NCBI GenBank assembly: GCA_977862235.1
Contig: OZ374559.1
Span: 3,038,001 to 3,102,000, forward strand
Length of the DNA: 64,000 bases
Direction of reading: 5' to 3'
Source of the DNA: Dudresnaya verticillata
Taxonomy: Eukaryota
The position numbers and the translations under genes were made by a program. A model generated the notes under the pieces. The model saw nothing but the letters and a program-made list of their open reading frames with translations, was not told where the DNA came from and ran no database searches. Each line of letters begins with the position of its first letter. The first letter of the stretch is position 1. Positions 27,783-54,675 of this stretch are shown one piece after another.

Positions 27783-27903
27783 CTCGTACAGCGCAGCGGC
27801 GCGTGGAGCGTCTTTGGCGACGCCGTCGCCATTTGCGAGGAGAAAGCTCAAACTGACCATTGCTTCGGCATCCGCAAACTCCGCAACGGCTCGTTCGTAC
27901 AGC
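27783..27903 (-). pseudogene. Detached Sel1 repeat of G1
   Basis: Translates LYERAVAEFADAEAMVSLSFLLANGDGVAKDAPRAAALYE, homologous to ~40615-40737 of G3. Confidence 0.9.
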
Positions 27904-36377: not shown

Positions 36378-37362
36378 TTTTTATCCCCAACTTTTTTTCG
36401 GATAGCCCTGCGCCTGCGATCTAGATAGCGAGCGTACTTGCACTCGTTGAACAAACAGGTTTGTGTTCTGCAGATCGTAAAACCAAAACCGCGGTCTCCT
36501 TCCTTGCCCAGAAGCCCGTCTTCAGCTCTTTAGATGATCTCGACAATAGTCACTGAGTGATAAATTTGATGCGAATTGACGAGGTCGAAATAGAAACCGG
36601 TGCTTCAGAGCTTCGTTATATCCGGGTCACAATATTGTCTCATGGTTGCTTTCAATCTCAAACTTTTCTTCTCCTCTCATCCCTCCCCGGGTCCCGTAAA
36701 TTAATGGTCGCCGGACTGCCATTTTCCCAAGTAACCGGATACGTTTCCCGAACTCTTATTCAACTACGTCCAGACAGCCTACAGTTTTCAAGTCAAATAA
36801 GACTGGACGCCAATCTCGAAAAGAACAAAAACATCCCACAACCAGTATTGTTACTTAAATAAACAAGTTGTAGTAACAACAAGTTCTATTAAAAAATAAT
36901 GTGACATGCAGGTAGTGTATAGTATGTGGGACGTGTCCTAACTTCCGAGGATATAAATTCCGAGGGCATTGTTTGCAATGATCTGCTATCAACGCAAGCA
37001 CCAATATTCTGGCACTTCGGTCAGAGAGATAGAGGAAGCCGAGAGTAATTAATGAAACCCCTGTCTAGACTCAAGGACCATGATGCGTACTTTCAGCCCG
37101 TGCATGCAATTTTCCATCATTTCAGACGAGGATAGTCCCCCTTTCGTAAGATTATGTTCACAGGCCTTGCAATTATAGGCAAGCCTCGTCGGTATTGCTA
37201 ATAAAGGCAAAATGGTATCGGAAGTTAATTCCGAAGTCACTTGTGTTACAAGTATCTCCATTCTCTCCATCACTGGAACCTCCATGGAAAAAGTACAAGT
37301 TGGCGATCTTCAAATTGGTGCTTACGGAAACGGAAACGTTTAGCGATGTGACAGAAATTTAC

Positions 37363-40300
37363 TTAAGTATCTTCAAAACTCTCGAACAACATATCTGCAG
37401 CTCTCTTCGCGAACTGATTTTCCGATTCTCCTCTATCGTTCCGAGCACCAGTATATTTCGTCACCGCTGCAACTGTGTCCATTACGTTCGACTCTTTCCC
37501 GAACTCGCGTTCAAAGAAGTCATTCTCTTTAAACTCTCGCCAAAATCGGTCGTCGAACGGAAGCTGTTTGTCCTTACAATCTCCGTACTCGAGTTTGTAG
37601 AACAGCGGGAACAGCACAAGGCGCGGTGATCCTTGTTTGCGCTTGAGAAATGCTGAAAGCTCCAACAGCGGCCACTTGCGAGAGACAAACGACGATGACA
37701 GGATGAAGACGGCAGCTTTGCTGCCCCGGACCGCTGCCCAGATCCGTTCATCAGTTGTTTGCGTGGAAACCCTCATACTCTCTTCATCCAGAAAACAACG
37801 CAAGCCCTTCTCCATCAACGCACTTAGCAGCGGGTATGCAAGCGACTCCTTATCTGGCCCTGCGTGGCTGATGAACACATCGTACGGTGTTACTGAGTCT
37901 CGCAATTCAACAGCGCAGTGCTCTGATCCCTGAGATACTCCCTTAAGAATATGCGGCATCAATTGCCCGTAGTTCCACAGTTGATTGCAGTAGCATTTTC
38001 CTTCTACTTCATCGAGTGCCTGGCATTGTTCGGCCAAAACCCATGCCCGAGGCATCGACAGCAACACACTTTCAGAGCCACCGCAACCCCCCTGGATGTT
38101 CGAAGGACAATCGGTAACTAGATAATGATTCCGAGCTGCGCTGCTTCCGTGCGGAGGTCTTGTCAAAAAATCTTCCATAGCTTTCAAACATTCTTGAGCC
38201 ACCTGCATTGCTGAGACGGCATCGCACCTGATCGTCCACACAATCCATCTTTTCTTAGGATCGAAGCAAACAACAACGCGGCAAGTCCCCTTCAGAGAAA
38301 GAATTACAGCATCTTGGCGAAGTTCCGGTGGCTTTGTTCGCTCTCCTCCGATGGTGCGGTGAAGGAATGCAACAAAGTAGCCCACCAAGCCAGGCGGAAA
38401 GAAATCATCAAAAACTGTTCTCAAAACAATTTCGCACTCTCCTTCTTTCTTAGGGCACTGGAATCCCTCCCAGCCTTTGGGAAGCAACGACGGAATCCCG
38501 ACTAGCTCGTTCCGCTCATCACCCTCCGTCTCCGGAGAGTACAAACGCATAAGAATGCCAAACTGGCACAGAATTTCGAGCATCACATCTCGAACAGGCG
38601 GTAGGTGTTCACGCCACAGCGCATCCAGTCCCTTTCGTGTTACAAACCCATTCTGATAACTGTCTAATTCTTGCTTTCCCAGAGTTCGCAACATCCTTTG
38701 GAAACCTTCCGATTCTTCGTTACCCAGTCGTTTTCGCATAAACTCCGCCGGGCCCGTGACTTGTCGAACAAAGTCCAAAATAACTGTTGGATCTGGGAAC
38801 ACATACCATCCCTCGCCCGTCTGAACTTCGACGATATGCCCTTGTTGACCCTGGAATTGAACGCATTTCTCAACGTCTGCATCTCTCTCGTCCTTGTCAC
38901 TAGAGAATCCGGGAAGTCTGGCAGCATGGCTCTGAACTTCCCCCATTTTCAGAATGCCTTCAGTGGCGAGTGACAAAATGTCTTCCCTGAGGGCAGCCCA
39001 CCGAACGGGAACTTCTTCTCTTCCGTCAAGAATTTCATCACTGGCTTCCTTGATTACTTTCTCGAGTTCCACAATTCCTGATGCAGCACGATCTGGCCGC
39101 TGTTTTCGGAGAGATACCATACTTAAGAGATAATGAAGTAAGCCACCATGATCTTGGGAAGCAATGTTATTCTCGATGGCTACCCACCGACACTTGAACT
39201 TGTCGGCATCACCTGGGGCCGTTTCACGAACCCAATTATCGTAAACCGCCCTCCCGAGATTCTTTTCCAGCTTTTGTCGCAGCTGCTGTAATAAGTCCTC
39301 GGGGTCTCCAACATCTGCCTTCCTGGTTCCCACTATTATCACCCAAATATTTTTCGGGTTCTGCGAAGACGCATGTGCCATTTGCATCCAGTTGCACAGT
39401 TCTAAGACTTCGTCCTCTTTGGTGACTTCAGACGCAAACCTTTTCAGGTCTACCACGAAAACAAAAATGGAAACGCGGCGGATGAAGATTGCGGGAACAC
39501 TGAGGTACTCTGCCTGACCCCCAAGGTCCCAGCATTGCACCAACGCAGCTCGATTATCCACAGGAAATGAGGAACTCATGAGCCCTTGCCGTGCTGCTTC
39601 CCAAATGGGAGACGCTTGGGAGTTGATAGACTGCGAAGCAGCCATAGTGGGCGGAGGTGGTGGTTGTCGAACAGTGGTATGGCTGTTTGCCAATGTGTCT
39701 CCACTATGGGGAACGGTCCTCTTCGTCAGAGGAGCTCGGTTGAGCCAAGTGGAGAGTTTAAGGCGGAATCTTGTGTTGGATTTTTCACTCGGCCGCGATG
39801 ATGCATCAGTTGCAGTTGGGAGAAACGCCGATCCAGCTCGAAAGGAGCCGGCATCGGATGCACTTGCTGTAGATGACATTGGTCGTTCCGTTGGCGTGGG
39901 TACCTCTTGAATATCGGACCGTGACATGAGGGCATGGAAGGCCTCGCTGTTGAAGGCGAGCTGGTCGACATGGTCATCGTCTAACTTGGGGCCGTCGGGG
40001 ACGACAAGAGTGCGACTAAGCGACACAAAATGTGTCGGTTGGTGGGTGGCAACGAAGGGCATGGAGCGCAGGCTCCTTACCGTGCTTGTCTTACCGCGTG
40101 CCGCACCGCCGAGAACAAGAAGAAAGCACTGCCGTGGCTTTGCTGTGGCGGTCTTGAGGGTGTTTTCAACAAGTGTGCTGGTGTCACCGATGCGGTTGAC
40201 AAGGTATTGCCACCGGCTGCCGAAGAATTCAAGCTCAAGAGGCGTTACCTGTTGATGCGCTGCTTGTTGATGCCGTTGGGCTGCTGCGTGCTCATTGCGA

Positions 40301-41100
40301 GCAACACCGACATCTCCGCGGGCAAGCAATGTGGCGAGCTCATAGAGTGCGACGCGGGTGCGATGGAGTTCGATTGAGCGTTGGAAGAGGCTCTTCGCGC
40401 GCGGCGGATCGCGCGCGTCTCCGATATGATTGGACAAAAGCGCTTGGCCCAACCGAACCATACACATTGGGGCCCTCTCGTGACCGCTGTCGCAGGCGCG
40501 TTGGAGCAGTTCGACGCCGCGCGGAACGTCTCGCGGAACATCGATTGCGCCTCTCAGCAGCAAATTGCCCAAATTGGACATTGCGACGACATCTTCGCCC
40601 TCCGCGATGGCGCGGTCGTACAGCGCAGCGGCGCGCGGAGCGTCTTTGGCGACGCCGTCGCCGTTTGCGAGGAGAACGCCCAAATTGCCCATTGCCTTCA
40701 CATCCGCAAACTCTGCAACGGCTCGTTCGTACAGCGCTGCCGCGCGCTTTCTGTCTTTGACAAAATGGCGCCATCCGATATGGAGACGCACTCCGAGTTT
40801 GCGCAGCGACACCCCGCGCGGATCTCGCGCGTTGGCGCGCTCGACCAGCTCCGCGGCGCGGCGCTCGTCCTTGGGCACTCCCACGGCACCTTCCTTCAGC
40901 AACAGTGCAAGGCCATGCCGCGCTTCGTCATGGTCGCCCTCATGAATCGCTCGCTCGAGCAAGGCGACGGCTTGCAAAGGTAGAACAGGCCCTCCATCTG
41001 AAGCGCCCCAGCACACAAAGGCGAGTGCAACCATGTCGTCGACATCGGCATTGTCGTCGATAGCTTGGCGAAGGGCACGGCGCTGCGGTGTGGCGTCCAT
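37363..41100 (-). CDS. Sel1-like repeat / Roc GTPase / COR / TIR protein G3, 1245 aa, intronless
   Basis: About 7 Sel1-like repeats (AMGNLGVLLANGDGVAKDAPRAAALYDRA); P-loop GGAARGKTS; WDLGGQAEY; IVGTRKAD; COR-like VPVRW, IPSLLP, FPPGL; TIR YDVFISHAGPD...FILSSSFVSRKWPLLEL...LFPLFY. Confidence 0.92.
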   Translation of the reverse strand: MDATPQRRALRQAIDDNADVDDMVALAFVCWGASDGGPVLPLQAVALLERAIHEGDHDEARHGLALLLKEGAVGVPKDERRAAELVERANARDPRGVSLRKLGVRLHIGWRHFVKDRKRAAALYERAVAEFADVKAMGNLGVLLANGDGVAKDAPRAAALYDRAIAEGEDVVAMSNLGNLLLRGAIDVPRDVPRGVELLQRACDSGHERAPMCMVRLGQALLSNHIGDARDPPRAKSLFQRSIELHRTRVALYELATLLARGDVGVARNEHAAAQRHQQAAHQQVTPLELEFFGSRWQYLVNRIGDTSTLVENTLKTATAKPRQCFLLVLGGAARGKTSTVRSLRSMPFVATHQPTHFVSLSRTLVVPDGPKLDDDHVDQLAFNSEAFHALMSRSDIQEVPTPTERPMSSTASASDAGSFRAGSAFLPTATDASSRPSEKSNTRFRLKLSTWLNRAPLTKRTVPHSGDTLANSHTTVRQPPPPPTMAASQSINSQASPIWEAARQGLMSSSFPVDNRAALVQCWDLGGQAEYLSVPAIFIRRVSIFVFVVDLKRFASEVTKEDEVLELCNWMQMAHASSQNPKNIWVIIVGTRKADVGDPEDLLQQLRQKLEKNLGRAVYDNWVRETAPGDADKFKCRWVAIENNIASQDHGGLLHYLLSMVSLRKQRPDRAASGIVELEKVIKEASDEILDGREEVPVRWAALREDILSLATEGILKMGEVQSHAARLPGFSSDKDERDADVEKCVQFQGQQGHIVEVQTGEGWYVFPDPTVILDFVRQVTGPAEFMRKRLGNEESEGFQRMLRTLGKQELDSYQNGFVTRKGLDALWREHLPPVRDVMLEILCQFGILMRLYSPETEGDERNELVGIPSLLPKGWEGFQCPKKEGECEIVLRTVFDDFFPPGLVGYFVAFLHRTIGGERTKPPELRQDAVILSLKGTCRVVVCFDPKKRWIVWTIRCDAVSAMQVAQECLKAMEDFLTRPPHGSSAARNHYLVTDCPSNIQGGCGGSESVLLSMPRAWVLAEQCQALDEVEGKCYCNQLWNYGQLMPHILKGVSQGSEHCAVELRDSVTPYDVFISHAGPDKESLAYPLLSALMEKGLRCFLDEESMRVSTQTTDERIWAAVRGSKAAVFILSSSFVSRKWPLLELSAFLKRKQGSPRLVLFPLFYKLEYGDCKDKQLPFDDRFWREFKENDFFEREFGKESNVMDTVAAVTKYTGARNDRGESENQFAKRAADMLFESFEDT

Positions 41101-41191
41101 GTCGGCAGGAGCGGGCGGTCGAGCGGGTGGAGACGGTTGGAGATGGGGTGGTTGGGGTATGTGTCGGGAGCGGGTGCACCAACTGCACGGC

Positions 41192-41201
41192 GCTATTTAT
41201 G
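41192..41201 (-). promoter_or_regulatory. Candidate TATA-like box (CATAAATAGC) ~95 bp upstream of the G3 ATG
   Basis: Isolated AT-rich patch in GC-rich sequence; same motif at the same distance upstream of G4 (~54769-54778), just before the two flanks diverge. Confidence 0.45.
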
Positions 41202-41540
41202 CAGCGCGGCGCGGTGAAAAGGTAGCCATCCAAACACATCGTGTGGCCTGTCGAAGCTCCACGTTGTAGCACAACGACCGTCTTGTTGTCCCCGCCGCAG
41301 CGCTATTGTTCGGCTTTTGTCCCAACAGGAGAATCACCGGAGGACGGCTCGCTTGGCCCGCCACAACGTTCTGATAAAAAACGTACGGCCGGTGCCGTCG
41401 CCTTATGCGAGCCCTAAGCGCAAGCTACATTTCGGGCCTGTGGCCGCTGGAGCGCATGAATTTGAGGGCCCCTGCACGTTGTACATGCGCCGAGAATCGT
41501 GCAATTGTGCCTATTATCTATCGGAGTGCATCCAACAGTA

Positions 41541-41672
41541 AGAGAGATGGGGGCCTTTATGGTCGGATTCGAAGGGCACTAACTAGGTCGCCCCGTCCAC
41601 TCAAGGACCAAGGACGTACCTGAAGCGCAAGCCGACGGCGATTGATCGCCAGCGCTTGAAAGTGGAGAAGGC
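41541..41672 (-). mobile_element. 3' fragment of CRE-like family A4, abutting another (GA)n-tailed end
   Basis: Encodes LLHFQALAINRRRLALQV like 56270-56330; second tail gagagagagagatgcactttatt at ~41673-41697. Confidence 0.75.
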
Positions 41673-42749
41673 GAGAGAGAGAGAGATGCACTTTATTCAG
41701 CGCGATGCAAAAGAATATCGCGATATGGCCCAAGTAGCAATAGGCCACCAACGGAGTATGCTTAGACTTGCGAGCAAGCCCTTTGTATTGCTTCAGCAAT
41801 AGCGTAAGCGCGCGATATTTGTGCACCCCGCCGTTCGTAGGGATGCGCGAGGCGTAGTCGCGAAGAAAAGGCGGCGCAAGGAAAGTACGGCCAAGCGATG
41901 GCCCGAGTGAACCATGTACACGCCCCGATGGTCCCGGAACTCGCAACTGCCACAGCCACAACAGCAACAACAGCACCACCACTTTCGCCATTGCGAAGGC
42001 AGCCACCGCAATGGCGAAAGCAGTCAACCGCTCTTAGAACAAACTCTGGCCCATTGAATGCTTTTTAAAGTGGCGCAAGGGAGAGAGCGCAGTACGCCTC
42101 CCCAAAGCCAATCTCCGGCCTCGCCCTGGATCTGCTGCGCATCCGAGCCCGGCCGTTCCGTCCTCTGAAGCACCCGCATTTCTCGGAGTCCAGACTCCGC
42201 CTCATCGCGTAATCCATCGACCTGGTCTTCCACATTCTTCACCGTTCGCCTCCTGTCGCAGACTTGAAACCAAGAAAATCACGAAAACAATAAATCCGCC
42301 ATCCATGCCGCTTCAGCAGATGCCCAAATGTATACACCGCTTGTTGTACCACGGGCTCTTTACGAGTCTATAGCAACCATAACTGCATTGCCGGATGGTA
42401 GGCGTTTCTAGCGCTTTGCTCAGGAACGGTCACCCGCGCACTTTTGCCAAGACCGTGAGAGGCGGCCGATTTATACCCCCATCTTTTTCTTCGGATAGCC
42501 CCGTCGCCTACGATCTCAAGCGTTCAACAAACAGCCTTGTGTTCTGCAGATTAGAAAAGGACAGCTCCGGTTTCCTTCCTGTGGAACGCGCAGCAGCCCT
42601 TCTTCACCTCTTTAGGCGACCTCTAGAAAAGTCATTGAGCTCAAGTTTGATGAGAATTGACGAGGGCGAAATAGAAACCGGGGCTTCAGAGCTACGTAAT
42701 AAAAGGATATGTGCCAGCTACTGCTGTACAGGATTTTGGGTTTACTAGA

Positions 42750-43900
42750 ACATCAACCCGGAAGGACGGTTGGTGTGGAACCTCCATGACATGCTGACGG
42801 CTCTAGAGGTAACCCCAGAGCGGTTGTTGAAGATTGTAGAGTTTCTTTCGAAGCTCCAGAATGAAAAGCGTCTGTTTGCGCTAGTATTTGAAGACCCCAG
42901 CGGGGATGTGATACTGGACGAGATGGTTTCGTACATGCGGGCGGTGTGCGGGATTCCGGATGCATGCAGCTCGAATGACGGCAATCTGCTGGCGCACATC
43001 CAAGAGAAGTGCGAGTTGCAGGCCACAAACACGCTAGAGTGTTTGGCAGCAGGGTGCGACGGGATGTGGAGCTGCCTGTCCGTGGAGGGTGTGGCGATGG
43101 GGCACGCGTGCTCGACGATGGTGTTGATGAACTATGTATGGCTGGGGAATAAGAAGGTGCTGTCCAAATACCGGTGCCAGGAGTTTCGGAAGGCAGCGAT
43201 CGAGGTTACGCGGCCGACGACGCTGAAGGACCCGCACCCCAGCACTGCTCGTACGGAGATCGGTCTCTGGGCCTTGTGTTTGAATCGAGCTCGATGGTGG
43301 GGCCGGGTTCAACATGGCAGAGTTTTTCGGGAAGCGCGAGCGCGAGACGAACCGGACGACGACGCTGGAGTCACCAAACATGGTCATGAACAGGCTCAAG
43401 TACTTGTTTGGTGGCGACGTTCAGTTTACGAAGGCAATGGCGCAGAAGATGCTGGCGCAGATGCTAGTGGACCTGAACGTGGATCGGAAGGAGCGACAAA
43501 TGAGGAGGAGTACCAGAGCGCGATGGGACTGGCGGTGTTTTTCGACCTGTGCGGGGGCGGATGACGGGGATGATGAGCGAAGCGATTGCTCGCGTGCAGG
43601 TGCAGGACGCTCTCCACCAGCGGGTGACTGTGGATGCCCGGCAGATGTGGGACTTTTGCGACTCGAAGGAGGCGCGGAATCAGGACGGGGCGCTTGACTT
43701 TGAGTCATTCTACCACGGGTTTCTCGCGCCGTACTTTGGGTGCTACCCGTGCACGGACACCAAGCAGGCGCTGGCCGAGATAGACATGGACAAGGATGGG
43801 GGTGTGGACTGGGAGGAGTTTCTTGTGTACGTCAAGTGGGCTCTTGCACAATACCTCGAGACGAGCGACGCGGACACGGCGATTGAGATCGGGTTGTAGA
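42750..43900 (+). pseudogene. Frameshifted gene: TIM-barrel metallolyase-like region + two EF-hands
   Basis: EF-hand DMDKDGGVDWEEF plus a degenerate upstream partner; LAHI(Q/H)E...NTLECLAAGCDG...EG..GHA resembles the HxH region of DRE-TIM enzymes; several frameshifts. Confidence 0.6.
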
Positions 43901-43974
43901 AGGGGTTGGTCTCGGGGATGAGGGACGTTAAGGTGGATAACCCGGAGATACACACTGCATTTTACCAAAGTGTC

Positions 43975-44880
43975 CAGCTCCATTATCCCTTAATGCCACA
44001 ACTTGTGATTTCCAATGCATCCCGTAGCGGGTTGGCAACGGATCTCTTTTCCGCCCCTGCGTGGCTGATAAATATATCGTACGGCGTTACTGAGTCCTGT
44101 AGTTCAAAAGCGTAGTCGCCTGATCCCTGAGATACCCACTCAAGAATATGCGGCATCAGTTGTCCATACTTCCGCATTTTCCTTCTGCTTCGTCGAGTGC
44201 CAGGCATTCTTTAATCGAAACCCATTACCGAGGTATTGGCAACAACACACTTTTAGAGCAGCCGCAACCCCCCTGGATGCTCAAAGGACAATCAGTGACT
44301 ATAAAATGATTCCAAGCTGCGCTACTTCCGTGCGGAGGTCTTTTCAAAACATCTTGCATAGCTTTCAGATATTGTTGAGCCACCTTCATCGCTGAGACGG
44401 CAACAATCGCACCTGATCGTCCACACAATCCATCAAAGTACACAATTATGGTTGAATCCGGGAACACGTACCACCCCATACCACGCTGGTCACAACCTCC
44501 ACTATATGCGCTTTTTGACCCTGAAATTGAACACATTTCTCAACGTCTGCTTCTCTCTCCTCCTTGTCACTAGAGAATCCGACAAATATGGCAGCATGGT
44601 GCTGGATTTCTGCCGTTGTCATAAAGATTTTTTTGTTTTCTGTAGCCTGTGGACAAAATATCTTCCCTGAGGGCAGCCCACCGAACGAGAACCCCTTCCT
44701 TCCGTCAACAATTTCGTCACTCGGATTGTCTTCTCCAGTTCCGCAACGCCTCTAACCCAGCACGGTCTCGTTCAGCACTGCTGTTCTCGACAATAACCAA
44801 TCGAAACTTGTTCTTATCGACATCACCCCGGGACCCTTTCACAAACCCAATCATCGTAAAAACCCCGAGATGCTTTTGCT
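43975..44880 (-). pseudogene. Highly degenerate COR-TIR remnant related to G3
   Basis: YGQLMPHIL...SVTPYDIFISHAG, PPHGSSAAWNH, GWYVFPD; internal deletions and stops. Confidence 0.85.
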
Positions 44881-45508
44881 CTCGGAGAAACGATGAGGAA
44901 CGAGCTACAACTTTGCGCATGGCAATTAGAATCGAGGTGACGTGCGACGCTTTATGTCCGCCATTGCATGCGGCCACAACTACAATTCTGTGAATTGACT
45001 CTCCCTTCTGCCTTGAAGATGTAATACCGGTTCTTCTGCGTTGTACTGCTTCTCCCGAGTTGGCTCGCGGACCTGTTCGTTCTTCAGCACAGATGCCTTT
45101 TTTACTAGAGCTCCCAACTTCGGCTCTATTTATGCTCTCAACTCGCTGGTGCTCTTCCAATCTACGTCGTTGTCTCAAATGCAACAGTCCCTCTAAATGC
45201 AAATAGTAAATGCTAGCTCGACGGTAAAGCGTCGTATATCTCATCTGTCGTCCGCCATTTCATGAGTAAATTCATTTCCAGCTCGACCACCTTGTCCAAC
45301 ATCCATAGCTGTGTTGCTTAGCCAACATCAATTCACGATTCATCCTACTTTCTAACAAAGAGCACGATTACAATAATTCATAGCATTAGTACCGTACTGT
45401 AGCATTTGTAGCTAATGCTGGCATTCGTGATGTATTACTCCAATGGCTCGCCTTACGTAGCTATCAATTCACCAAGTTACAAAACAACATAAACACCGGG
45501 CTCTAGGA

Positions 45509-46283
45509 CAATGGCTGCAAGCAATAATATTGCAAATTATTGTAGCACCAATACTCTCCCCTTCGGCAATCTATATTGCTATATAGCCGCCATCATGCCC
45601 CAGTAACATCTGCAGAATATGCCTACGTCGTGCAATAAGTTTTTAATAGACTTAGATAGTGCGAAGGAAGCATGGGGATCCATGTTAACGTTTGTGTAAT
45701 GCGATGTCAAAACTGTTCATTCATTTTGAGGAATATAATAGCTTCAAAAAATTGGTGGTCATCGCCTTGCGATTGTCAGTTAGCACGTGCTCCGCAATGC
45801 TCCTGAGCCGGTCAACCTCGGCAACGGATCTAAGAATAAAGTTGCAGTTGATAAAAGCATCTAGTTTCCAGGGTACCTTTCGCTTCTTGGCTAAACGCTG
45901 AATGATCGATGACTTGTAAATTATAAGTCATGGTGCATCATCGACGACGATGATACTGTTGGCGAGAAAGCAGACCTGGCAACTTGTTAGTGATAAAGTG
46001 GCAATGATTTGGTACGATGCAATTTGCAGCATGGGGCTAGAAAACGTTATATTCTCGGGATCAAACCCTACAGATGCCGCTCCCCGCAAAACCGAACATA
46101 TGCTTATCGTATACTGCATTTAGCAACAGCCCTTCTAATATTACTACTTAACCCAATAGGTATTACAATATACATTGTCACTGCAATAAGAATTGCAATT
46201 TGCTATCATATCAGCAACTCAATATGCCATTGCTATTGTATATTGCAATATATTGCTACTGCTATTAATTACACGACAGCCCT
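45509..46283. mobile_element. Putative MITE-like repeat, copy 2 (inverted relative to copy 1)
   Basis: Both ends are homologous to the reverse complement of 3383-4190; ends cgacagccctg. Confidence 0.55.
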
Positions 46284-46865
46284 GGTCACCAGCCCTGACG
46301 CGACGCTTCTGCAACTTTCTGCGCTTCTTTTCCTCTTCTTCCCCTCTTTTTGCCCTTCTTTTCTGTCCTTTCTGTCCGTTTTCTGCAACCCATCCGACGT
46401 TATTAACCTTTTATCCTGTCCTGTAAGACAGCCATGGCAGGGATCAAACAGATACCTACCTTTTTGTCACCCTGTCATGTGCTCATTATGACGGCGCCAG
46501 AAAACTATTACACCGGCACTTTAATCACTCAACCCTGTTCGTATTCGAAGCAACTGTGAACAATGTCGTGGCAGAGCTGTGCGACTCTCATGCATGCGAT
46601 TTTAGACAAGTCTCCGAAGGGAGGTCCGTCGAATACCGTCGATATCCGCCCTTTTCGGTCTAACAACATCTCGAACACAAACGGGAATTGGCTTCGGTGC
46701 TGAAATGGACCGCGACCAGAGAATAGCTTTATCATTGTGTCTAGACTCCTTCGTGAAGGAAACCATGGGCGAATATATTATGTACCCATTGCGCCGATAC
46801 TCCTGAAAGTTTGGAGAGAGGAAACACGTGCTTGAGAACGAACAAAGTGTTCAAAATATTTGTCA

Positions 46866-46918
46866 ACACTTGTTCACATACTTTATCCGGACACTTGTTC
46901 ACATACTTTATCCGGACA
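46866..46918. repeat. 25-bp tandem duplication
   Basis: acacttgttcacatactttatccgg twice. Confidence 0.9.
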
Positions 46919-47169
46919 AGACTGGCGGAGACGAAACAAGAAACAGAGCCTCACTCTTCAGATCTCTTGTACTCGATCATAGTCATCAGCAAGGGAGACA
47001 TGACGTTGGACACCTCCCTGGTCGTCGAATTTGCTCTCTCCAGATACGTTTCAACTGACCAGGCCTTATCCTAGGCTGTTTACGAGACTTGCAGAAACTC
47101 TAATGTTGAATACTTGACAGGGACTGAAGTTTCTACCCGCTTTAGGGACCAGCTGTTTAACCGCCCTTT

Positions 47170-47560
47170 ATCTAGACGGAACGTTTGAGAGCCTCCGTAC
47201 CTGAACAGGGTATGTAACTGCAACAATCAAGCAGTCCGCAAGACCGGTAATATTACGCAATGGCGGAACCAAGATCCCAGAGGGGGCATTGGTGATGAGT
47301 CTTCAAAGCTGGGCAAACCTGGACCCCAAAATATGGCGCGATCCGTTGGGATTTGGTCCGGAACGGTGGGTCTACAGAACTTCTCGTAGAGAGGGTGACA
47401 AAGTCTGGCCTGGAACTTATGTTCCGTTTGGTAGTAGGTCTCGTGCTTGCGCCGGTAGGTTTCTTGCCAAGCACGACTAAGCTCTAATCCCCGCCGAATT
47501 GCATCGCAGTTTTATTTTCATGCTAGCTTCCGAGAAGAGCGAAGGAGTGGGAGTGAAGGC
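47170..47560 (+). pseudogene. Cytochrome P450 C-terminal remnant
   Basis: GGTKIPEGALV, DPKIWRDPLGFGPERW (PERF-type motif), PFGSRSRACAGRFLA (decayed heme-binding FxxGxRxCxG), followed by a stop. Confidence 0.8.
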
Positions 47561-49046
47561 TTTTGTCGAGGTTGCAAAATCACCCTCTGTGAAGGGAGGG
47601 GGATTAAAAGACGCTAAACAAGCGCGTTGGACTTCTGCCAGAACACAATACAGGAAACGCTATTTCTTTACGGCGTTAGAATACATGTGAATATTTGCCA
47701 TGTCGTTTCTGTGCTTGTTTCAGGATGGGGAGTACTGATGAGAGCTCCTCACCTCTGGAGAGACAAGTGCCACTTCCGTGAGCACAATAGCTACCCCTTC
47801 TAATAATCGATCAGAAGGAACGTTTTCTGTTTGTCCGAACTCACAAGTAGATTACACACACGTTGTCTCCGAGAGGGCCTGCGATAGATAAACTGTGGTT
47901 TAGTTTCTCGAAAGGAGGGTAACGCACAACGTACCTTGTGCCTTGTGGGCGTAGAAAGGATGTATAAGACAAGAGCCCAACTTTTATGCTGTATACTAAG
48001 TGTTGTGAATCGCAACTACTATTTTTGATAATCAGAACTCGTATCAACTGAATCGCAACTACTATTTTTGCTAACCATAACCCGTATCAATAGAACAGAA
48101 TGACATTTCGAGGAACGAAGAGGGCCATGTAGGAGGAGACGGAAGCAGCGAGAGCTCCCAGGGTGAACGGTTACGTCTGCTACCCGTCGCAACGTTCCAG
48201 CAAATTCATGAGCTCCGCTGCGGTTTAGTACATAGCCGCACACAGCCGCCACCCACACTGATACACCCACTCACCGATCCATGCGTGCCGCCACTCGTCC
48301 CTTCGAGCTACTAACAGTATATACGGGATTTTGCGTCTCAGGAGACGAGAAACTGTCTAAACATCTCACGTGGAAGTATCTTTCAAACTCACTGGGACGA
48401 GGTCGTCGCCCTCGAAGCGAATTATGTGTTCCAGACCGTACGCATCGGCAGTCTGGAGACCAAAAGCATTAAAGAAAGTGTGGCGAATACGATGGCCATT
48501 GCCCGTCTCGCGCATGCGAGCGACCATGTTCTCACCACCGGCCTGTCCAAACAGTTTGTAGGCTCTGCCTTGCTGTTGACACTTGCTCGCCCTGGAAGCT
48601 GAAGTGAGAGCCGTCAAAGCCAAACATGTCTGGATTCTTCGAGGCGAAAGCCATGCAGAAGGCCCGGATGCCGATGCTCTTAAAGTCGCATTCGTAGTGG
48701 AGCACGGCGTCAATTTGCAAGGGGACAATCTGCGTACTGATTCAGCAGGAGAAGCCACACGGGTGGTCGCCAGCGTAGGGGTCCGTGAGGCATCGCGCTT
48801 TCGGCTGGTCGCAGCACGCGTTTTCCGTGGCGCGGCGTTCGGTAAAAGTGGCCAGCCGGGTGAAGGCACGCTGTGAAGTGCACGAGCAGCTACTAGTGTG
48901 TCGGGTGCGGGCGGTCCCCCCCAGAAAATATACTGGGACAAGGAGGTAAAAGAAACAATCGATAGGGGGGTGTCGTCCATCTTCTCTGTGGCGGTGGTCG
49001 TGGGTGCTGGTTGGTGTAAAAAGGTGAGTGCGAAGCGAGGTTGGTT

Positions 49047-49074
49047 CTTGTTCTTTAATAAAGGTCTCTCCTCC
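49047..49074 (+). mobile_element. 28-bp extreme 3' end of family A
   Basis: cttgttctttaataaaggtctctcctcc, absent from the paralogous site at ~11285; degenerate TSD ttggtt/tcggct. Confidence 0.7.
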
Positions 49075-49462
49075 TCGGCTGAAAGTGATACATACAGGCT
49101 GCAGCAAGGACGAGATTCGTGTTCCGTTTTGCTGTTTGTCGACGGGGAGATCTTTTCGGAAGGCAGTACGGCCATTAACAATAATGGGTTAACGCGGAAA
49201 CAATAACAAGAGTGTTTTGTAAGCATGTTCAAGCCATCTTCTGAATCCACCTGGGTTCTATGTATAGCCTGCACCTTGGTACAATCTCAAATGTTCAACA
49301 ACCAGCCTTGTAAATATAGACAGGACACCGAGCTGAGCTTCGATGTCAATAGACAAGGACGAAATAGAAATCAGACACACTACCGGTAGTCAAGACGGCA
49401 CGAGGCGAGGATCACAATGTTTGCATGGCCGCTCACCGCCTCGATCGTAGTATCCCTGCACC

Positions 49463-49830
49463 GTGGCTGGGACCCGGCCGGCCCCTGTCTACACTTCAAC
49501 ACGCTTTGCGCCGGCCCTGCAATTGCAATGCACCGCTCATCGAATTCTCGCCATACGATGGCACTTAGGGACGTTCCCGATCCCTCCCCCCAACCCGGTA
49601 GCCGCCCACCGCGTCCGCCGCCTACGACCCCTATTGAATCTGCTGGCTCACCCAAACCCAACTCCCACCTCCCTCACCCGCGTATGCCAAGCAATTGAAC
49701 AAATCCGTCGCATGGGCCTCCAACATACTACATCCTCCGACGACCCCACCACAGCTCGATAGGGCCAGCTCTAGATACGCAGTGTGTTTGCCAATAGGTC
49801 GTTGACGCCGAGGCAAGTACACTCTAAACT
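49463..49830 (+). mobile_element. 3' fragment of LINE family B
   Basis: Duplicate of 11665-12030. Confidence 0.85.
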
Positions 49831-51075
49831 TTGTTGAGCAAACTTTATCATCACTCCACTTTGGTTTCCACCACGCCTTCATACGCACCGATTTCCACTC
49901 TCCCTTTCACTTGTAAAGTGACGCTTACCCTTTCACTTCTTTGATACTCTCGCGCTCCAGTTTCATAATCTTGTTCAACCAGTTGCCAAAAAGCTTTTCA
50001 ACGAATAGCTTGCCCTTTTCAGTGCCCCACAGCTCATAACTGTTTGCCCTTCGTTAAAGCGCATCCTGTATCCGTATACCAAACTTGCAATGTGTGCAAA
50101 AGACGATCATCCCCACCCTTCAAACACGGCGTTATTGTCTTGGCCCACAGTCTTGGAGCACACTTTTTCCACTTCGCTCATCATCGTCTTTGCCCATTCA
50201 CTTATCTCACCCGTCGCCTGCAATTTCGCATGCAACTGGACCCAGTCTCCAGTTGTGTTCCCCACCGCGTACGGCGGACTCGTTCTGATTACGTTGTGCA
50301 AGGATCGCAGTACTACTGCATCGTCCGACTCACCTTATCCCGCTCCTGTCATTTCAAGAGTACTACAGCACCAGTGCTCGGACCATCACAGCATAAGCAG
50401 CCTCTGGGACGAACCAGTGCTTCTGCCAATCGAAGCAACGCAGAATGTACAGGCCCCCATTTCGTTGCTGCTTGTCTGTATCTGAAACCGGCCGCACGCA
50501 GCTGTCCTGTACTACAACTAGCCGAGCCTGCCGGTCTCCCGCCTAAGCCGGCAATGTGCCCGGCTAAAACCTTGACCTTGTACTGCGCCGCCAAGGTACG
50601 TTGCCGAACATCCGCTCGCCACAGGTACCCTGCCAGGGTACACGATTGCCATCAGAGTCTTTCCATACGCCCACAGCGTTGCCGTAATGTTCCAAACGCA
50701 GCGAAAAGAACGCAAACCGTGCTATATTGGACACTTCCGGTTGCCAGAAAGACTACCCTTCCGGGTGCCAGAAAGACCATTTGCAACATGTGTGTCGTTG
50801 TATTTTATTTGTTGTTTAACGTGGTCCTAACATGTGGTACTTTATCTATGTTGTCGTACGGAACAAAGACTGCAACCATGGAGCGTGATCTGAGCCTGTC
50901 CTTGACATTAGAAATGAAAACACAGACCATGATGCTTTCGCAGGGAGCCATTGCCGGGCATTTCAGAAGATGAGTGCATTACTATTGTACAAAAAAAAGT
51001 GATGGAGGCTTTAGCGAGAAACATAGAACGATTGCGGTTGAAAGCAGCACACAGCTACACCTATGATGGCATACT

Positions 51076-54000
51076 TTATTGGATTTTTCTTAAACACGCA
51101 GACAACATTTTTGCTGCTCTCTCTGCTAACTGATTTTCCGACTCGCCTTGATCGTTCAGAGCACCAGTATACTTCGTCAGCGCCGAAAGTGTATCCATTA
51201 CCTTCGTCACTGGGTAATTATTCCCGACCTCTGCGCGGTCAAAGAAGCGATTATCTTTAAACACTCGCCAAAATCGATCGTCGAACGGAAGCTGTTTGTT
51301 CCTACAATCTCTGAACTGGAGTTTGTAGAATAGCGGGAACAGCACAAGGCGCTGTGACCCTTGTTTGCGCTTGAGAAATTCTGACAGCTCCAACATGGGC
51401 CACTTGCGAGAGACAAACGACGGTGACAGGATGAAGATGCCAGCCTTGCTACCCCGGACTGCTGCCCAGATTCTTTCTTCGATCTTTTGCGGGGAAACCT
51501 TCAGACACGTTTTATCCAGAAAACAACTTAGGCCCCTCTTCTCCAACGCATTCCGTAGCGGGAATGCAAGTGACTCCTTATCTTCCCCGGCGTGGCTGAT
51601 AAATACATCGTATAGCATTACGGGTTCTGGCAATATAAAAGGGCGATGACTTGGGCCCCCAAGTACTCTCCCAAGGATGTGCAGCTTCAACTGCTTGTAC
51701 GTCCAAGTCTGGCAACTCTGCTCATTGCGAAGGCAAGATCCTTCTGCTCGGTCCAACGTCTCACACTTCTCACTTCTTACCCAAGCCTCAGGGATTTTCA
51801 AGCGTACGGTACTGGTACCCCCACAGCCCCCGCGAATTTCCGAAGGGCAGTCTGTCATCATATGATGACTCCAATTGGCCTTACTTCCGTGCAGCGGTCC
51901 CTTCAAAAATCTTTCCATACCCTGCAAACACTTGTGTGCAATCTGCAAAGCTTCATCCCTTTCCGACCTGATGGTCCACACCACCCATCTCTTCTCTGGA
52001 ACAAAGCAAACAACAACCCGGCATGCTCCCTCAAGTGACAGGATGACGGCATCTTGACGAAGCTCGGGCGGTTTTGTCCGCTCTCTTCCAATGGTTCGGT
52101 GAAGGTACGCGATCAGTGACCCTGTCAGACTTGGCGGAATGGTATCGACAAACTCTGTTCGTAAAATTAGTTCACTCTCTCCCTCCTTTGTGTCATACGA
52201 GAACCCTTCCCAGCCCTTTGGCAGCAGTGAAGGTATCCCGATTAGCTCGTTCTGTTCACCGTCCGCTCCTTCCACTGCCTGAAGGCGCATGAGGATGTCA
52301 AATTGACAAAGAATGTCAAGCATGACTTTTCGGACAGCTGGTGGGTATTTACACCACAATTCATCCAGTCCCTTTCGTGGGATCAGTCCTTTCTCGTAAC
52401 TTTGTGCTTCATGCTGTCCCAGAGTCTGTAAACGCCTTTCAAACTCTTTCGCTTCTTCTTCACCCAGTCGTTCTCGCATAAACTCAGCCGGGCCCGTGAC
52501 CTGTCGAATAAAGTCCAGAATAACTGTTGGATCTGGGAACACGAACCATCCCTCGCCCGTCTGCACTTCTACGATATGGCCCTGCTGACTCTGGAATTGG
52601 ACGCATTTCTCAACGTCGGCTTCTCTCTCCTCCTTGTCACTAGAGAATCCGGGAAGTCTGGCAGCATGGCTCTGAACTTCTGTCATTACCAGAAAGACTT
52701 TTTGGCTTTCAGTGGCGTGCGACAAAATGGTTTCCCTGAGGGCAGCCCACCGAACTGGAACCTCTTCCCTTCCGTCAAGAATGTCTTCACTTGCTTCCTT
52801 GATAAACTTCTCTAGTTCCACAACGCCTGACCCGGCACGGTCTTGTTCAGCACTGCTGTTCTTGTTCTCGATGGCAACCCACCGACACTTGTATTTGTCG
52901 ACATCGCCCTTCTCACGTACCCAATCATTGTAGACAGCCCTTCCAAGATGCTTTCGCAGTTTTTGTCGCAGCTGCTGAAACAAGTCTTCAGGGCTTTCAA
53001 CTTCTGCCTTCCTGGTTCCCACCAGGATCACCCAAACGTTTTTCGGGGTTTGCGAAGACGTATGTGCCATTTGCATCCAGTCGCATAGTTCCAACACTTC
53101 GTCCTCTTGGGTGACTTCTGACGCAAACCTTTTCAGATCTACCACGAAAACAAAAATGGAAGCGCGGCGGATGAAGATTGCGGGAACACTGAGATACTCT
53201 GCCTGACCCCCAAGGTCCCAGCATTGCACCAACGCAGCGCGATTATCAACAGGAAATGGGTAACTCATGAGCCCTTGTCGTGCTGCTTCCCAAATGGGAG
53301 ACGATAGGGAGTTTATAGACTGCGAAGCAGCAATACTGGGCGGAGCTGGTGGTTGTTGAGCAGTGGTATGGCTGCTTGCCAATGTGTCTCCACTCTGGGG
53401 AACGGTCCTCTTGGTCGGAGGAGCTCGCTTGAGCCAAGTGGGGAGTTTAAGGTGGAACCTTGCGGTGGATTTTTCACTCGGCCGCGATGATGCATCAGTT
53501 GCAGTTGGGAGAAACGCCGATCCAGCTCGAAAGGAGCCGGCATCGGATGCACTTGCTGTAGATGACGTTGGTCGTTCCGTTGGCGTGGGTAACACTTGAA
53601 TCTCGGACCGTGACATGAGGGCATGGAAGGCCTCGCTGTTGAAGGCGAGCTGGTCGACAGTGTCATCGTCCAACTTGGGGCCGTCCGGGACGACAAGAGT
53701 ACGACTCAGCGACACAAAGTGTGTCGGCTGGTGGGTGGCAACGAAGGGCATGGAGCGCAGGCTCCTTACCGTGCTTGTCTTACCGCGTGCCGCACCGCCG
53801 AGAACAAGAAGAAAGCACTGCCGTGGCTTTGCTGTGGCGGTCTTGAGGGTGTTTTCAACAAGTGTGCTGGTGTCACCGATGCGGTTGACAAGGTATTGCG
53901 ACCGGTCGCCGAAAAAATGCTCAAGAGGCGTTAGCTGTTGATGCGCTGCTTGTTGATGCAGTTGGGCTGCTGCGTGCTCATCGCGAGCAACACCGACATC

Positions 54001-54675
54001 TCCGCGGCCAAGCAATGTGGCGAGCTCATAGAGTGCGACGCGGGAGCGATGGAGTTCGATTGAGCGTTGGAAGAGGCTCTTCGCGCGCGGCGGATCGCGC
54101 GCGTCTCCGATATGATTGGACAAAAGCGCTCGGCCCAAAACAACCATATACATTGGGGCCCTCTCGTGACCGCTGTCGCAGAAGCGTTGGAGCAGTTCGA
54201 CGCCGCGCGGAACGTCTCGCGGAAGATCGATTTCGCCGCTCAGCAGCAATTGGCCCAAATTGACCATTGCGTCCACATCCGCAAACTCTGCAACGGCTCG
54301 TTCGTACAGCGCTGCCGCGCGCTTTCTGTCTTTGACAAAATGGCGCCATCCGATATCGAGACGCAGTCCGAGATTCCACAGCGACACCCCGCGCAGATCT
54401 CGCGCGTTGGCGCGCTCGACCAGCTCCGCGGCGCGGCGCTCGTCCTTGGGCACTCCCGCGGCCCCTTCCTTTAGCAACAGTGCAAGGCCATGCCGCGCTT
54501 CGTCATGGTCGCCCTCATGAATCGCTCGCTCGAGCAAGGCGACGGCTTGCAAAGGTAGAACAGGCCCTCCATCTGAAGCGCCCCAGCACACAAAGGCGAG
54601 TGCAACCATGTCGTCGACATCGGCATTGTCATCGATAGCTTGGCGAAGGGCACGGCGCTGCGGTGTGGCATCCAT
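51076..54675 (-). CDS. Sel1-like repeat / Roc GTPase / COR / TIR protein G4, 1199 aa, intronless
   Basis: ATG at 54675 (MDATPQ, as in G3); same motifs as G3; one Sel1 repeat fewer; TIR YDVFISHAGED...KWPMLEL. Confidence 0.92.
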   Translation of the reverse strand: MDATPQRRALRQAIDDNADVDDMVALAFVCWGASDGGPVLPLQAVALLERAIHEGDHDEARHGLALLLKEGAAGVPKDERRAAELVERANARDLRGVSLWNLGLRLDIGWRHFVKDRKRAAALYERAVAEFADVDAMVNLGQLLLSGEIDLPRDVPRGVELLQRFCDSGHERAPMYMVVLGRALLSNHIGDARDPPRAKSLFQRSIELHRSRVALYELATLLGRGDVGVARDEHAAAQLHQQAAHQQLTPLEHFFGDRSQYLVNRIGDTSTLVENTLKTATAKPRQCFLLVLGGAARGKTSTVRSLRSMPFVATHQPTHFVSLSRTLVVPDGPKLDDDTVDQLAFNSEAFHALMSRSEIQVLPTPTERPTSSTASASDAGSFRAGSAFLPTATDASSRPSEKSTARFHLKLPTWLKRAPPTKRTVPQSGDTLASSHTTAQQPPAPPSIAASQSINSLSSPIWEAARQGLMSYPFPVDNRAALVQCWDLGGQAEYLSVPAIFIRRASIFVFVVDLKRFASEVTQEDEVLELCDWMQMAHTSSQTPKNVWVILVGTRKAEVESPEDLFQQLRQKLRKHLGRAVYNDWVREKGDVDKYKCRWVAIENKNSSAEQDRAGSGVVELEKFIKEASEDILDGREEVPVRWAALRETILSHATESQKVFLVMTEVQSHAARLPGFSSDKEEREADVEKCVQFQSQQGHIVEVQTGEGWFVFPDPTVILDFIRQVTGPAEFMRERLGEEEAKEFERRLQTLGQHEAQSYEKGLIPRKGLDELWCKYPPAVRKVMLDILCQFDILMRLQAVEGADGEQNELIGIPSLLPKGWEGFSYDTKEGESELILRTEFVDTIPPSLTGSLIAYLHRTIGRERTKPPELRQDAVILSLEGACRVVVCFVPEKRWVVWTIRSERDEALQIAHKCLQGMERFLKGPLHGSKANWSHHMMTDCPSEIRGGCGGTSTVRLKIPEAWVRSEKCETLDRAEGSCLRNEQSCQTWTYKQLKLHILGRVLGGPSHRPFILPEPVMLYDVFISHAGEDKESLAFPLRNALEKRGLSCFLDKTCLKVSPQKIEERIWAAVRGSKAGIFILSPSFVSRKWPMLELSEFLKRKQGSQRLVLFPLFYKLQFRDCRNKQLPFDDRFWRVFKDNRFFDRAEVGNNYPVTKVMDTLSALTKYTGALNDQGESENQLAERAAKMLSACLRKIQ

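What the first reader, a model, noticed from the sequence alone, without database searches (positions are those of the whole stretch)
37363..54675. Cluster of Sel1-Roc-COR-TIR proteins: candidate GTPase-switched innate immune receptor family
Seen: five paralogues (two intact, three broken) with N-terminal Sel1-like repeats, a Roc-type GTPase (GxxxxGKT, WDxGGQ, VGTxxxD/E), a COR-like region and a C-terminal TIR domain. Established: ROCO proteins usually carry LRR, ankyrin, kinase or death-type domains; NLRs use a sensor-repeat/NTPase-switch/effector layout and evolve by birth and death in TE-rich clusters; brown algal LRR-ROCO genes have been proposed as immune receptors. Inference: this is an NLR-analogous receptor with a Sel1 sensor, a Roc-COR dimerisation switch and a TIR effector. 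I do not know a characterised protein with this architecture, but cannot exclude unstudied database entries.
Basis: partly seen in the sequence, partly recalled or inferred. Interest (0 to 1): 0.9.

Follow-up and report, generated by a model that had tools for sequence, protein, structure and literature searches.

The report
Seaweed Sel1-Roco-TIR candidate immune receptors
A likely red-seaweed genome carries a duplicating cluster of genes that join a Sel1 repeat scaffold, an LRRK2-type Roc-COR switch fold and a TIR domain; the layout is already noted in Irish moss, but the copies here differ mostly on the scaffold's predicted binding face, so they are likely immune receptors, predicted to trigger NAD breakdown.

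Summary
The architecture is real. Two intact genes (37363-41100, 51076-54675) encode Sel1 repeats, Roc, COR and TIR. Three broken copies exist, but two lie outside the given coordinates and two have no Sel1 part. The middle region models confidently and matches LRRK1/LRRK2/CtRoco Roc-COR (Z 22.4 over 460 residues). It is not an unknown layout. Chondrus crispus has five relatives, a 2024 paper names TPR-ROCO-TIR there, and repeat-Roc-COR-TIR counter-invader proteins were predicted in bacteria. Three things are new here. Amino-acid differences among three copies fall on TPR ligand-face positions (15 of 36 versus 14 of 168). Copies are recombination mosaics. The G4 aspartate that reads guanine is absent in both intact copies and in 17 of 25 surveyed Roc sequences. 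The TIR keeps its catalytic-position glutamate. Best reading: birth-and-death intracellular immune receptors with an NADase-type output, untested. 'Dimerisation switch' is doubtful as worded, because GTP monomerises the studied bacterial Roco. Expression and dimerisation could not be tested.

The parts
37363..41100 (-). Copy A, intact, 1245 aa: Sel1 repeats - Roc - COR - Cys-rich end of COR - TIR
   Evidence: ORF; Pfam; models; fold searches
40255..40929 (-). Copy A Sel1 solenoid, six scored repeats (aa 58-282), preceded by one degenerate helix pair; carries the variable ligand-face positions
   Evidence: Pfam Sel1 5e-22; model pLDDT 87 with A-helices at 58-70, 97-108, 134-146, 171-183, 210-222, 249-261; top fold hits are Sel1 proteins; variation
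39022..40149 (-). Copy A Roc domain (aa 318-693): P-loop 331-338, switch-I Thr356, G3 524-529, G4 591-595 without Asp; low-complexity insertion between strands 2 and 3
   Evidence: Motif alignment; Pfam Roc 5e-8; insertion has pLDDT under 50 at aa 405-493
37921..39021 (-). Copy A COR-A/COR-B (aa 694-1060), ending in a segment with conserved cysteines (possible Zn ribbon, inferred)
   Evidence: Foldseek: COR-only chain 3dpt E 2.4e-9, RocCOR 3dpu E 2e-14; VIA-align Z 22.4 to LRRK1 over model 18-761; cysteines in alignment
37366..37893 (-). Copy A TIR domain (aa 1070-1245) with Glu1147 at the catalytic position
   Evidence: Pfam TIR_2 1.5e-15; best TIR hit in PDB sequences is AbTIR, 8e-13, with aligned Glu; Z 20 to RUN1 TIR
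51076..54675 (-). Copy B, intact, 1199 aa, one Sel1 repeat (37 aa) shorter than A
13278..16509 (-). Copy C, main part, broken (1-nt frameshift at the Roc/COR border, 5' part cut off by an insertion); 96% identical to B
27784..27903 (-). Copy C, one stranded Sel1 unit on the far side of the retroelement insertion; the rest of the 5' end is not in the window
16510..27783 (+). Non-LTR retroelement block (two tandem RT elements plus a nested RT element) inserted in the Sel1-coding part of copy C, with a 10-bp target-site duplication
   Evidence: Pfam RVT_1; self-comparison; duplication at 16500-16509 and 27784-27793
35336..36378 (-). Copy D, 3' fragment (end of COR and TIR) with frameshift and stop; 96.7% identical to B
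44010..44980 (-). Copy E, decayed relic with an internal deletion of most of COR; 71-80% identical to A in pieces

Best explanation
These are tandemly duplicated Sel1-Roc-COR-TIR genes of a likely florideophyte red alga that likely work as intracellular immune receptors: the Sel1 groove is predicted to bind a variable ligand, the Roc-COR unit would then change shape with its nucleotide state, and the freed TIR domains would cluster and are predicted to cleave NAD+. Shown: domain order, Roc-COR fold, intact P-loop/G2/G3, absent G4 Asp, TIR Glu, duplication, decay, sequence exchange, and variation concentrated at positions 2, 5, 6, 9, 12 and 13 of the repeats. Inferred: (1) the ligand is pathogen-derived or a pathogen-modified host protein; (2) the resting state is a COR-COR dimer that keeps the TIRs from assembling, and ligand plus NTP binding opens it, as in CtRoco, where GTP gives the active monomer; (3) the released TIRs self-associate into a higher-order assembly, since TIR NADases need self-association; (4) NAD+ loss or a nucleotide messenger leads to local cell death or defence. 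My odds: immune or self/non-self receptor about 0.7; active TIR enzyme about 0.75; Roc still binding a nucleotide about 0.8; GTP-specific about 0.5; whole chain 0.5.
For: Fold: the best Foldseek and VIA-align matches for aa 317-1060 are Roco proteins, and the profile search gives 3dpu, LRRK2 Roc, 4wnr and 6hlu for the Roc. Sensor: among A, B and C, 15 of 36 codons at the six TPR peptide-contact positions of PMC1261162 vary in amino acid, against 14 of 168 other repeat codons (Fisher p 4e-6). The unshifted set is the highest of 23 register shifts (next 12). pN there is 0.26 against pS 0.064 over codons 1-545. The model puts each A-helix at TPR positions 1-13. The Roc core (aa 318-375) has 0 amino-acid and 7 silent changes, and A-B dN/dS is 0.18-0.25 over Roc/COR, so the switch is under purifying selection. 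Exchange: A and B differ at 59 of 1107 nt in codons 176-545 but 291 of 888 in codons 800-1095. Repeat number differs between A and B. Effector: Glu at the catalytic column in 13 of 16 aligned rows; 2 rows end before the TIR and 1 has another domain. In a quick tree the TIRs sit among TIRs of NB-ARC, NACHT and Sel1-only scaffolds, and a Chondrus TIR-NB-ARC-WD40 TIR is sister to a Chondrus Roc-COR TIR (SH-aLRT 95). Relatives swap the front module: Sel1, ankyrin or a second TIR. Two Chondrus relatives lie four accession numbers apart, each on a 401,796-base contig.
Against: No functional evidence of any kind. Whole-domain dN/dS of the Sel1 span is not significant in any pair with fixed boundaries (p 0.08, 0.26, 0.20); the ratio of 5.6 depended on the boundaries I chose. 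I saw the list of variable offsets before fetching the published position set, so the enrichment test is not blind. These positions are the least constrained in any TPR, so relaxed constraint explains part of it. pS is patchy (0.047-0.153), and against the highest value the ratio falls to 1.7. Only three sequences were compared, one a pseudogene. The G4 Asp and the switch-II His seen in most relatives are missing in A and B, so the GTPase may be altered or weak. A and B are more alike in the sensor than in COR-B, the reverse of the simple NLR expectation. GTP-driven monomerisation in CtRoco does not obviously produce TIR clustering. Chondrus has only five such genes, a small family for a receptor repertoire. 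The Pyropia infection study that I read in passages lists no Roc protein (0 occurrences).
Confidence: 0.5

Rival explanations
1. They are signalling scaffolds for development, abiotic stress or protein quality control (Sel1 as adaptor, TIR as interaction or weak enzyme module). The cluster is a by-product of a repeat-rich region where segmental duplication is common.
For: Duplicated blocks include flanking DNA, retroelement pieces and an unrelated EF-hand gene relic. Sel1 fold hits include SEL1L/Hrd3 housekeeping adaptors. Whole-domain selection tests are not significant.
Against: Amino-acid change is focused on the six ligand-face positions while the Roc core is invariant. The TIR is shared with NB-ARC/NACHT scaffolds. 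Front modules are swapped across the family.
Confidence: 0.2
2. They are immune receptors, but the Roc no longer works as a GTP switch. It is a pseudo-GTPase or an any-NTP/ATP-binding scaffold, and ligand-driven clustering of the Sel1 part alone activates the TIR.
For: G4 Asp absent in A, B and 17 of 25 surveyed Roc sequences, and in two more Chondrus-type sequences. The switch-II His is replaced in A and B. Sel1-TIR proteins with no Roc-COR exist and their TIRs fall in the same clade as A and B. A changed G4 is linked to ATP preference in YchF/Ola1 (PMC8779481).
Against: P-loop Lys/Thr, switch-I Thr and G3 are intact in A and B, and the P-loop is intact in the full-length relatives surveyed by motif (P0028 is degenerate). 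The Roc core has only silent changes among copies. An acidic residue follows one position after the G4 slot in A and B and might substitute.
Confidence: 0.2
3. They are allorecognition or selfish killer-type genes (self/non-self between strains or life stages, like fungal HET NLR-like genes) rather than pathogen receptors.
For: The same sensor-switch-killer layout and repeat diversification would be expected (recalled analogy, no call). Repeat-number change and exchange are seen.
Against: No positive evidence in the window: no partner or antidote gene was recognised nearby.
Confidence: 0.1

Closest known systems
Chondrus crispus TPR-ROCO-TIR proteins (XP_005712860.1, XP_005713456.1, XP_005710386.1, XP_005710390.1, XP_005719309.1); architecture named in Teng et al. 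2024, PMC11378527
   Same: Same order Sel1/TPR-Roc-COR-TIR; 26-34% identity over Roc-COR-TIR; Pfam Sel1+Roc+TIR on XP_005712860.1 and XP_005713456.1, which also lack the G4 Asp; same long insertion in Roc.
   Different: The paper gives the architecture one clause and a count of five. In the passages I read it has no analysis of selection, motifs or clustering for the red algal genes. Here there is a young five-copy cluster with measurable ligand-face variation.
Prokaryotic AP-GTPase (Roc)-COR counter-invader proteins, Kaur et al. 2021, PMC8195603
   Same: Repeat sensor - Roc - COR - variable effector including TIR, in several paralogous copies; explicitly compared with NLRs.
   Different: LRR sensor in bacteria; here a Sel1 sensor in a eukaryote. 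Both are predictions. No bacterial Roc-COR was recognised among the named hits of my searches, but most hits are unnamed.
Brown algal LRR-ROCO candidate receptors (Zambounis et al. 2012, PMC3341825; Teng et al. 2024)
   Same: Roc-COR switch behind a repeat domain whose concave face diversifies; clustering, birth and death.
   Different: LRRs shuffled as exons and mostly no TIR; here intronless Sel1 repeats changed by unequal crossing-over and exchange, with a C-terminal TIR.
CtRoco, LRRK1 and LRRK2 (Roco GTPases with solved structures)
   Same: Roc-COR fold, Z 20-22 over about 450 residues.
   Different: 10-16% identity; no kinase; about 145-aa insertion in Roc; no G4 Asp; TIR output.
Plant TIR-NLRs and bacterial TIR NADases (AbTIR, TcpB)
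   Same: TIR fold with catalytic-position Glu; sensor/switch/effector logic.
   Different: The switch is Roc-COR, not a STAND ATPase. The TIR is C-terminal and lies outside the plant TIR clade in the quick tree. It is not an NLR by membership.
Aplysia LRR-ROC-COR-TIR and ROCO-MyD88-like proteins, PMC9334734
   Same: Roc-COR joined to TIR in an immune-gene survey.
   Different: LRR or death domains rather than Sel1; relationship not tested here.

Membership tests
ROCO proteins | Roc (Ras-like) domain | tested here: met
   Pfam Roc 33.6 bits against cut-off 27; profile hits to CtRoco, LRRK2 Roc and MbRoco2
ROCO proteins | COR (A and B) directly after Roc | tested here: met
   Model pLDDT 80.8, pTM 0.77; Foldseek 3dpt COR-only E 2.4e-9; Z 22.4, rmsd 5.4, 460 residues to LRRK1 631-1230. 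Pfam COR-A alone is below cut-off
ROCO proteins | G1, G2 and G3 motifs intact | tested here: met
   G331-T338, T356, W524-Q529 in A; same in B
ROCO proteins | G4 aspartate that reads the guanine base (typical, not used to define the family) | tested here: not met
   Ala in that slot in A and B; Asp in 8 of 25 surveyed sequences
ROCO proteins | GTP binding and hydrolysis | not testable with these tools
   needs biochemistry
ROCO proteins | COR-mediated dimer-monomer cycle | not tested
   the complex predictor was not available
Red algal TPR/Sel1-ROCO-TIR group (Teng 2024) | TPR/Sel1 - Roc - COR - TIR order, with homology to the Chondrus members across Roc-COR-TIR | tested here: met
   33% identity over 97% of aa 500-1245 to XP_005710390.1, E 2e-90; XP_005710386.1 E 1.5e-123
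Sel1-like repeats | Tandem 36-38-aa helix-pair repeats | tested here: met
TIR NADases | TIR fold with catalytic glutamate | tested here: met
   Glu1147 (A) and Glu1096 (B) align with the Glu column of AbTIR; that this is the catalytic residue of AbTIR is recalled; requirement for the Glu from PMC9806590 and PMC7282519
TIR NADases | NAD+ cleavage on self-association | not testable with these tools
   needs an assay
NLRs (STAND receptors) | NB-ARC or NACHT ATPase as central switch | tested here: not met
   No NB-ARC/NACHT Pfam hit in A or B; the central region is Roc-COR
NLRs (STAND receptors) | Works like one: diversifying repeat sensor, clustered birth and death | tested here: inconclusive
   Site-set enrichment strong, whole-domain tests not significant; cluster with three dead copies

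The most novel reading that the evidence does not exclude
Red seaweeds run a second intracellular receptor system beside their NB-ARC proteins, in which a Roc-COR module that has lost guanine specificity acts as an ATP- or any-NTP-driven switch, converging on the ATP/ADP switch of NLRs. Sel1 grooves under diversifying selection and gene conversion supply specificity, and TIR NADases are swapped between the Roc-COR and STAND scaffolds. This would be a eukaryotic Roco that directly gates a TIR enzyme, and a Roco that is not a strict GTPase.
Probability: 0.2. Interest if true: 0.85.

Novelty: new member of a known kind. Interest (0 to 1): 0.52.

Why it matters
How red seaweeds, including farmed ones, recognise pathogens is open: a review that I read in passages names NB-ARC, malectin and lectin families as red algal candidates (PMC8307928). 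This cluster offers two intact, intronless genes whose output (NAD+ cleavage) is easy to assay and whose variable residues point to a binding face. It also bears on what the Roc-COR cycle is for. A Roco with a TIR reporter would show directly whether the nucleotide state or dimer state turns the output on, which PMC11052575 calls enigmatic for LRRK2. The family-wide loss of the G4 Asp makes nucleotide preference a cheap first test. The score is held down because the architecture and the NLR analogy are already in print and nothing here is functional.

Tried and rejected
No whole genome is held for this window, so no genome-wide copy count. Sequencing runs: no RNA holder listed; one run with a 0.05 share gave a single 228-base contig identical to the TIR end of copy A, which says nothing on expression. 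The complex predictor was not available, so COR dimerisation is untested. The ESM Atlas gave no answer. The full-length homologue search returned only Sel1 matches (15 hits); the profile search returned 2 proteins among 7989 scored candidates, so taxonomic range is undersampled. The Chondrus genome paper was not held under the id I gave; its supplement, and that of PMC11378527, were not seen and may say more about these genes. Rejected: dN/dS 5.6 for the Sel1 core, which fell to non-significant values with fixed repeat boundaries. Rejected: site-specific targeting of Sel1-coding DNA by retroelements. Copy C is broken at the same motif in two successive repeats, but only one break has a target-site duplication; the other has a 12-bp inverted match 57 bases away and two events are too few. 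Rejected: assembly error as the cause of the broken copies (insertion with duplication, large deletions, stops). Rejected: the database name 'NB-ARC protein' for XP_005710390.1 as evidence of a STAND domain; Pfam finds Roc and TIR, no NB-ARC. The TIR tree is the quick one; the careful search did not finish. Earlier-findings look-ups by place, by sequence and by eight words were empty.
Full report
What is there. The window holds two long intronless ORFs on the minus strand, copy A (37363-41100, 1245 aa) and copy B (51076-54675, 1199 aa), 73-74% identical as proteins. tblastn and self-comparison show three more copies. C (13278-16509, plus one Sel1 unit at 27784-27903) is 96% identical to B. It is split by an 11.3-kb block of reverse-transcriptase elements with a 10-bp target-site duplication, has a 1-nt frameshift and lacks its 5' end. 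D (35336-36378) is a COR-end/TIR fragment with a frameshift and a stop. E (44010-44980) is an old relic with most of COR deleted. So the count of five (two intact, three broken) is right for the window, but only A, E and B lie in the stated coordinates and only A, B and C show Sel1 repeats. About a third of the window is retroelement-derived on a rough count from my own intervals (20.8 kb). The host is not given. Every named relative that matches across Roc-COR-TIR at 26% or more is from Chondrus crispus, so a florideophyte red alga is likely; that is inference.

Domains. Pfam gives Sel1 (5e-22), Roc (5e-8, above cut-off) and TIR_2 (1.5e-15) for A, and only a weak COR-A match for B. A model of A aa 300-1245 built on a 44-row alignment has mean pLDDT 80.8 and pTM 0.77, with one disordered stretch (aa 405-493) inside Roc. 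Its best Foldseek matches are LRRK2, CtRoco RocCOR, LRRK1 and the isolated CtRoco COR (E 1.7e-14 to 2.4e-9). VIA-align gives Z 22.4, rmsd 5.4 over 460 residues to LRRK1 631-1230. A model of aa 1-330 (pLDDT 87) is a Sel1 solenoid. The TIR's best PDB sequence match is the bacterial NADase AbTIR (8e-13), with Glu1147 aligned to its Glu column. That Glu is kept in 13 of 16 aligned rows; two rows end before the TIR and one has another domain.

The switch is unusual. The P-loop (331-338), switch-I Thr356 and G3 (524-529) are intact. The G4 slot that holds Asp in some relatives holds Ala in A and B. Of 157 proteins examined, 25 had recognisable G3 and G4 motifs; 8 have the Asp and 17 do not. The 25 include four near-duplicate pairs and three distant Rocos. 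Two further Chondrus-type sequences also lack it. A and B also replace a switch-II His found in most relatives. That this Asp reads the guanine base is established knowledge; in YchF/Ola1 a changed G4 is thought to explain ATP use (PMC8779481, passage). The Roc core is nevertheless conserved: 0 amino-acid and 7 silent changes among A, B and C in aa 318-375, and dN/dS 0.18-0.25 over Roc and COR between A and B. I read this as a working nucleotide site with uncertain base preference.

Evolution of the copies. A and B are mosaics: 59 of 1107 nt differ in codons 176-545 but 291 of 888 in codons 800-1095. B and C differ at 3 of 1062 nt in the 3' flank and 16 of 1341 nt in the 3' part of the gene, but at 16 of 324 in the last three Sel1 repeats (p 9e-5). 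B has one repeat fewer than A, with a hybrid junction. This is sequence exchange and unequal crossing-over among paralogues (inference). Amino-acid differences cluster in helix A: 19 of 72 codons against 13 of 150. Using the peptide-contact positions 2, 5, 6, 9, 12 and 13 given for TPRs in PMC1261162 (passages), with the conserved Leu as position 7 (numbering recalled; the model's A-helices match positions 1-13), 15 of 36 codons vary against 14 of 168 (p 4e-6). This register scores highest of 23 shifts, and pN is 0.26 against pS 0.064 over codons 1-545. Against this: whole-domain tests are not significant (p 0.08-0.26); I had seen the offsets before choosing the set; these positions are loosely constrained in all TPRs; pS ranges from 0.047 to 0.153, so the ratio runs from 1.7 to 5.6; and only three sequences were used. 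It is suggestive of diversifying selection, not proof.

The family. The search of 1.84 billion representatives gave 23 proteins at E up to 1e-30. Of 25 top hits scanned, full-length Roc-TIR forms carry Sel1 (P0021, P0024, P0025), ankyrin (P0026) or a second TIR (P0027) in front. Three are Sel1-TIR with no Roc match (P0039, P0047, P0048). Of 40 further proteins scanned, most of them TIR hits, many are NB-ARC, NACHT, WD40 or TPR proteins. In a quick tree of 45 TIR domains the window's TIRs group with Sel1-Roc-TIR and Sel1-TIR proteins (SH-aLRT 97), apart from plant TIRs (100). A Chondrus TIR-NB-ARC-WD40 TIR is sister to a Chondrus Roc-COR TIR (95). This suggests TIR exchange between STAND and Roco scaffolds; the careful tree did not finish and most rows have no named organism.

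Mechanism. I commit to an intracellular receptor with a Sel1 sensor, a nucleotide-dependent Roc-COR gate and a TIR NADase output (0.5 for the whole chain). The direction matters. CtRoco is a dimer without nucleotide and monomerises on GTP binding, the monomer being the active form (PMC11052575, abstract and Introduction). TIR NADases need the Glu and self-association (PMC9806590, PMC7282519, passages). A simple 'dimerise to activate' switch fits neither well. The likelier order is a resting COR-COR dimer that restrains the TIRs, opened by ligand and NTP so that TIRs can assemble. All of these steps are inferred. Rivals: non-immune scaffold (0.2); receptor with a pseudo- or any-NTP Roc (0.2); allorecognition (0.1).

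What is known. PMC11378527 (passages) lists 'TPR-ROCO-TIR (Chondrus crispus)' and counts five ROCOs there; I found five, two annotated as Sel1-repeat proteins and one as 'TIR domain-containing protein GTPase'. PMC8195603 (passages) predicts bacterial LRR-Roc-COR-effector counter-invader proteins with TIR among the effectors and draws the NLR comparison. PMC9334734 (passages) reports ROCO-TIR proteins in Aplysia. PMC3341825 (passages) shows concave-face selection in brown algal LRR-ROCOs. PMC12115072 (passages) lists Sel1 proteins among potential pathogen receptors of Asparagopsis. PMC6928737 and PMC8307928 (passages) discuss red algal receptors without red algal Roco genes. Six searches aimed at this family listed no paper that tests such a protein, analyses selection on red algal Sel1-ROCO genes or notes the G4 change; most subscription papers and all supplements were unseen. 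Earlier notes of this scan hold 34 Roc-COR-TIR findings in at least 30 other genomes, so the layout is widespread; these are unchecked notes.

Verdict. A real cluster and a true ROCO family. It is a new member of an architecture already noted in a red alga and predicted as immune-type in bacteria; it is not an NLR by membership but likely works like one. The added value is the ligand-face variation, the mosaic structure and the missing G4 Asp. Interest 0.52.

Noticed in passing
window 7466-8242 +: 258-aa ORF with a hydrophobic N-terminal stretch followed by about eight tandem cysteine-rich units of 19-20 aa; no Pfam match at E 0.01. It looks like a secreted cysteine-rich repeat protein or peptide precursor, 5 kb from copy C; a defence role is a guess.
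   Followed up: partly
window 42150-43900 +, 62743-64000 +, 36377-36620 +: A frameshifted gene with a C-terminal EF-hand (Pfam EF-hand_1 4e-6) occurs in two long copies (94% identical) and one fragment, each time on the 5' side of a Roco copy and facing away from it, so it seems to have been duplicated with them. Its N-terminal part had no Pfam match.
   Followed up: partly
window 16510-27783 + and 29225-33723 +: Non-LTR retroelements with an upstream ORF and an RT ORF that ends in a Cys/His knuckle and a restriction-like endonuclease-type motif (CRE-clade-like; clade label recalled, not tested). One copy (17994-21044) has an open 1016-aa RT frame and its tandem neighbour is 98% identical, so the family is young.
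   Followed up: partly
window 27892-27972: A 12-bp inverted match with a 57-base spacer at the junction between the stranded Sel1 unit of copy C and a truncated RT element; possibly a microhomology or inversion scar.
   Followed up: no
proteins P0039, P0047, P0048: Sel1-TIR proteins with no Roc match whose TIRs fall in the same clade as the window's TIRs: a switch-less form of the same sensor-effector pair.
   Followed up: partly
protein P0016 (XP_005710390.1): Annotated 'NB-ARC protein' in Chondrus crispus, but Pfam finds Roc, weak COR-A and TIR and no NB-ARC; probably a misnamed or fused gene model.
   Followed up: partly
proteins P0057, P0081: Roc-TIR proteins in the ochrophyte Chrysoparadoxa australica whose TIRs lie outside the red-algal-type group in the quick tree: possibly an independent Roc-COR-TIR fusion.
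   Followed up: partly
proteins P0031, P0043: Relatives with other modules: P0031 is Sel1-Roc-COR with a C-terminal domain that is not a standard TIR; P0043 has a KIX_2 match before Roc.
   Followed up: no
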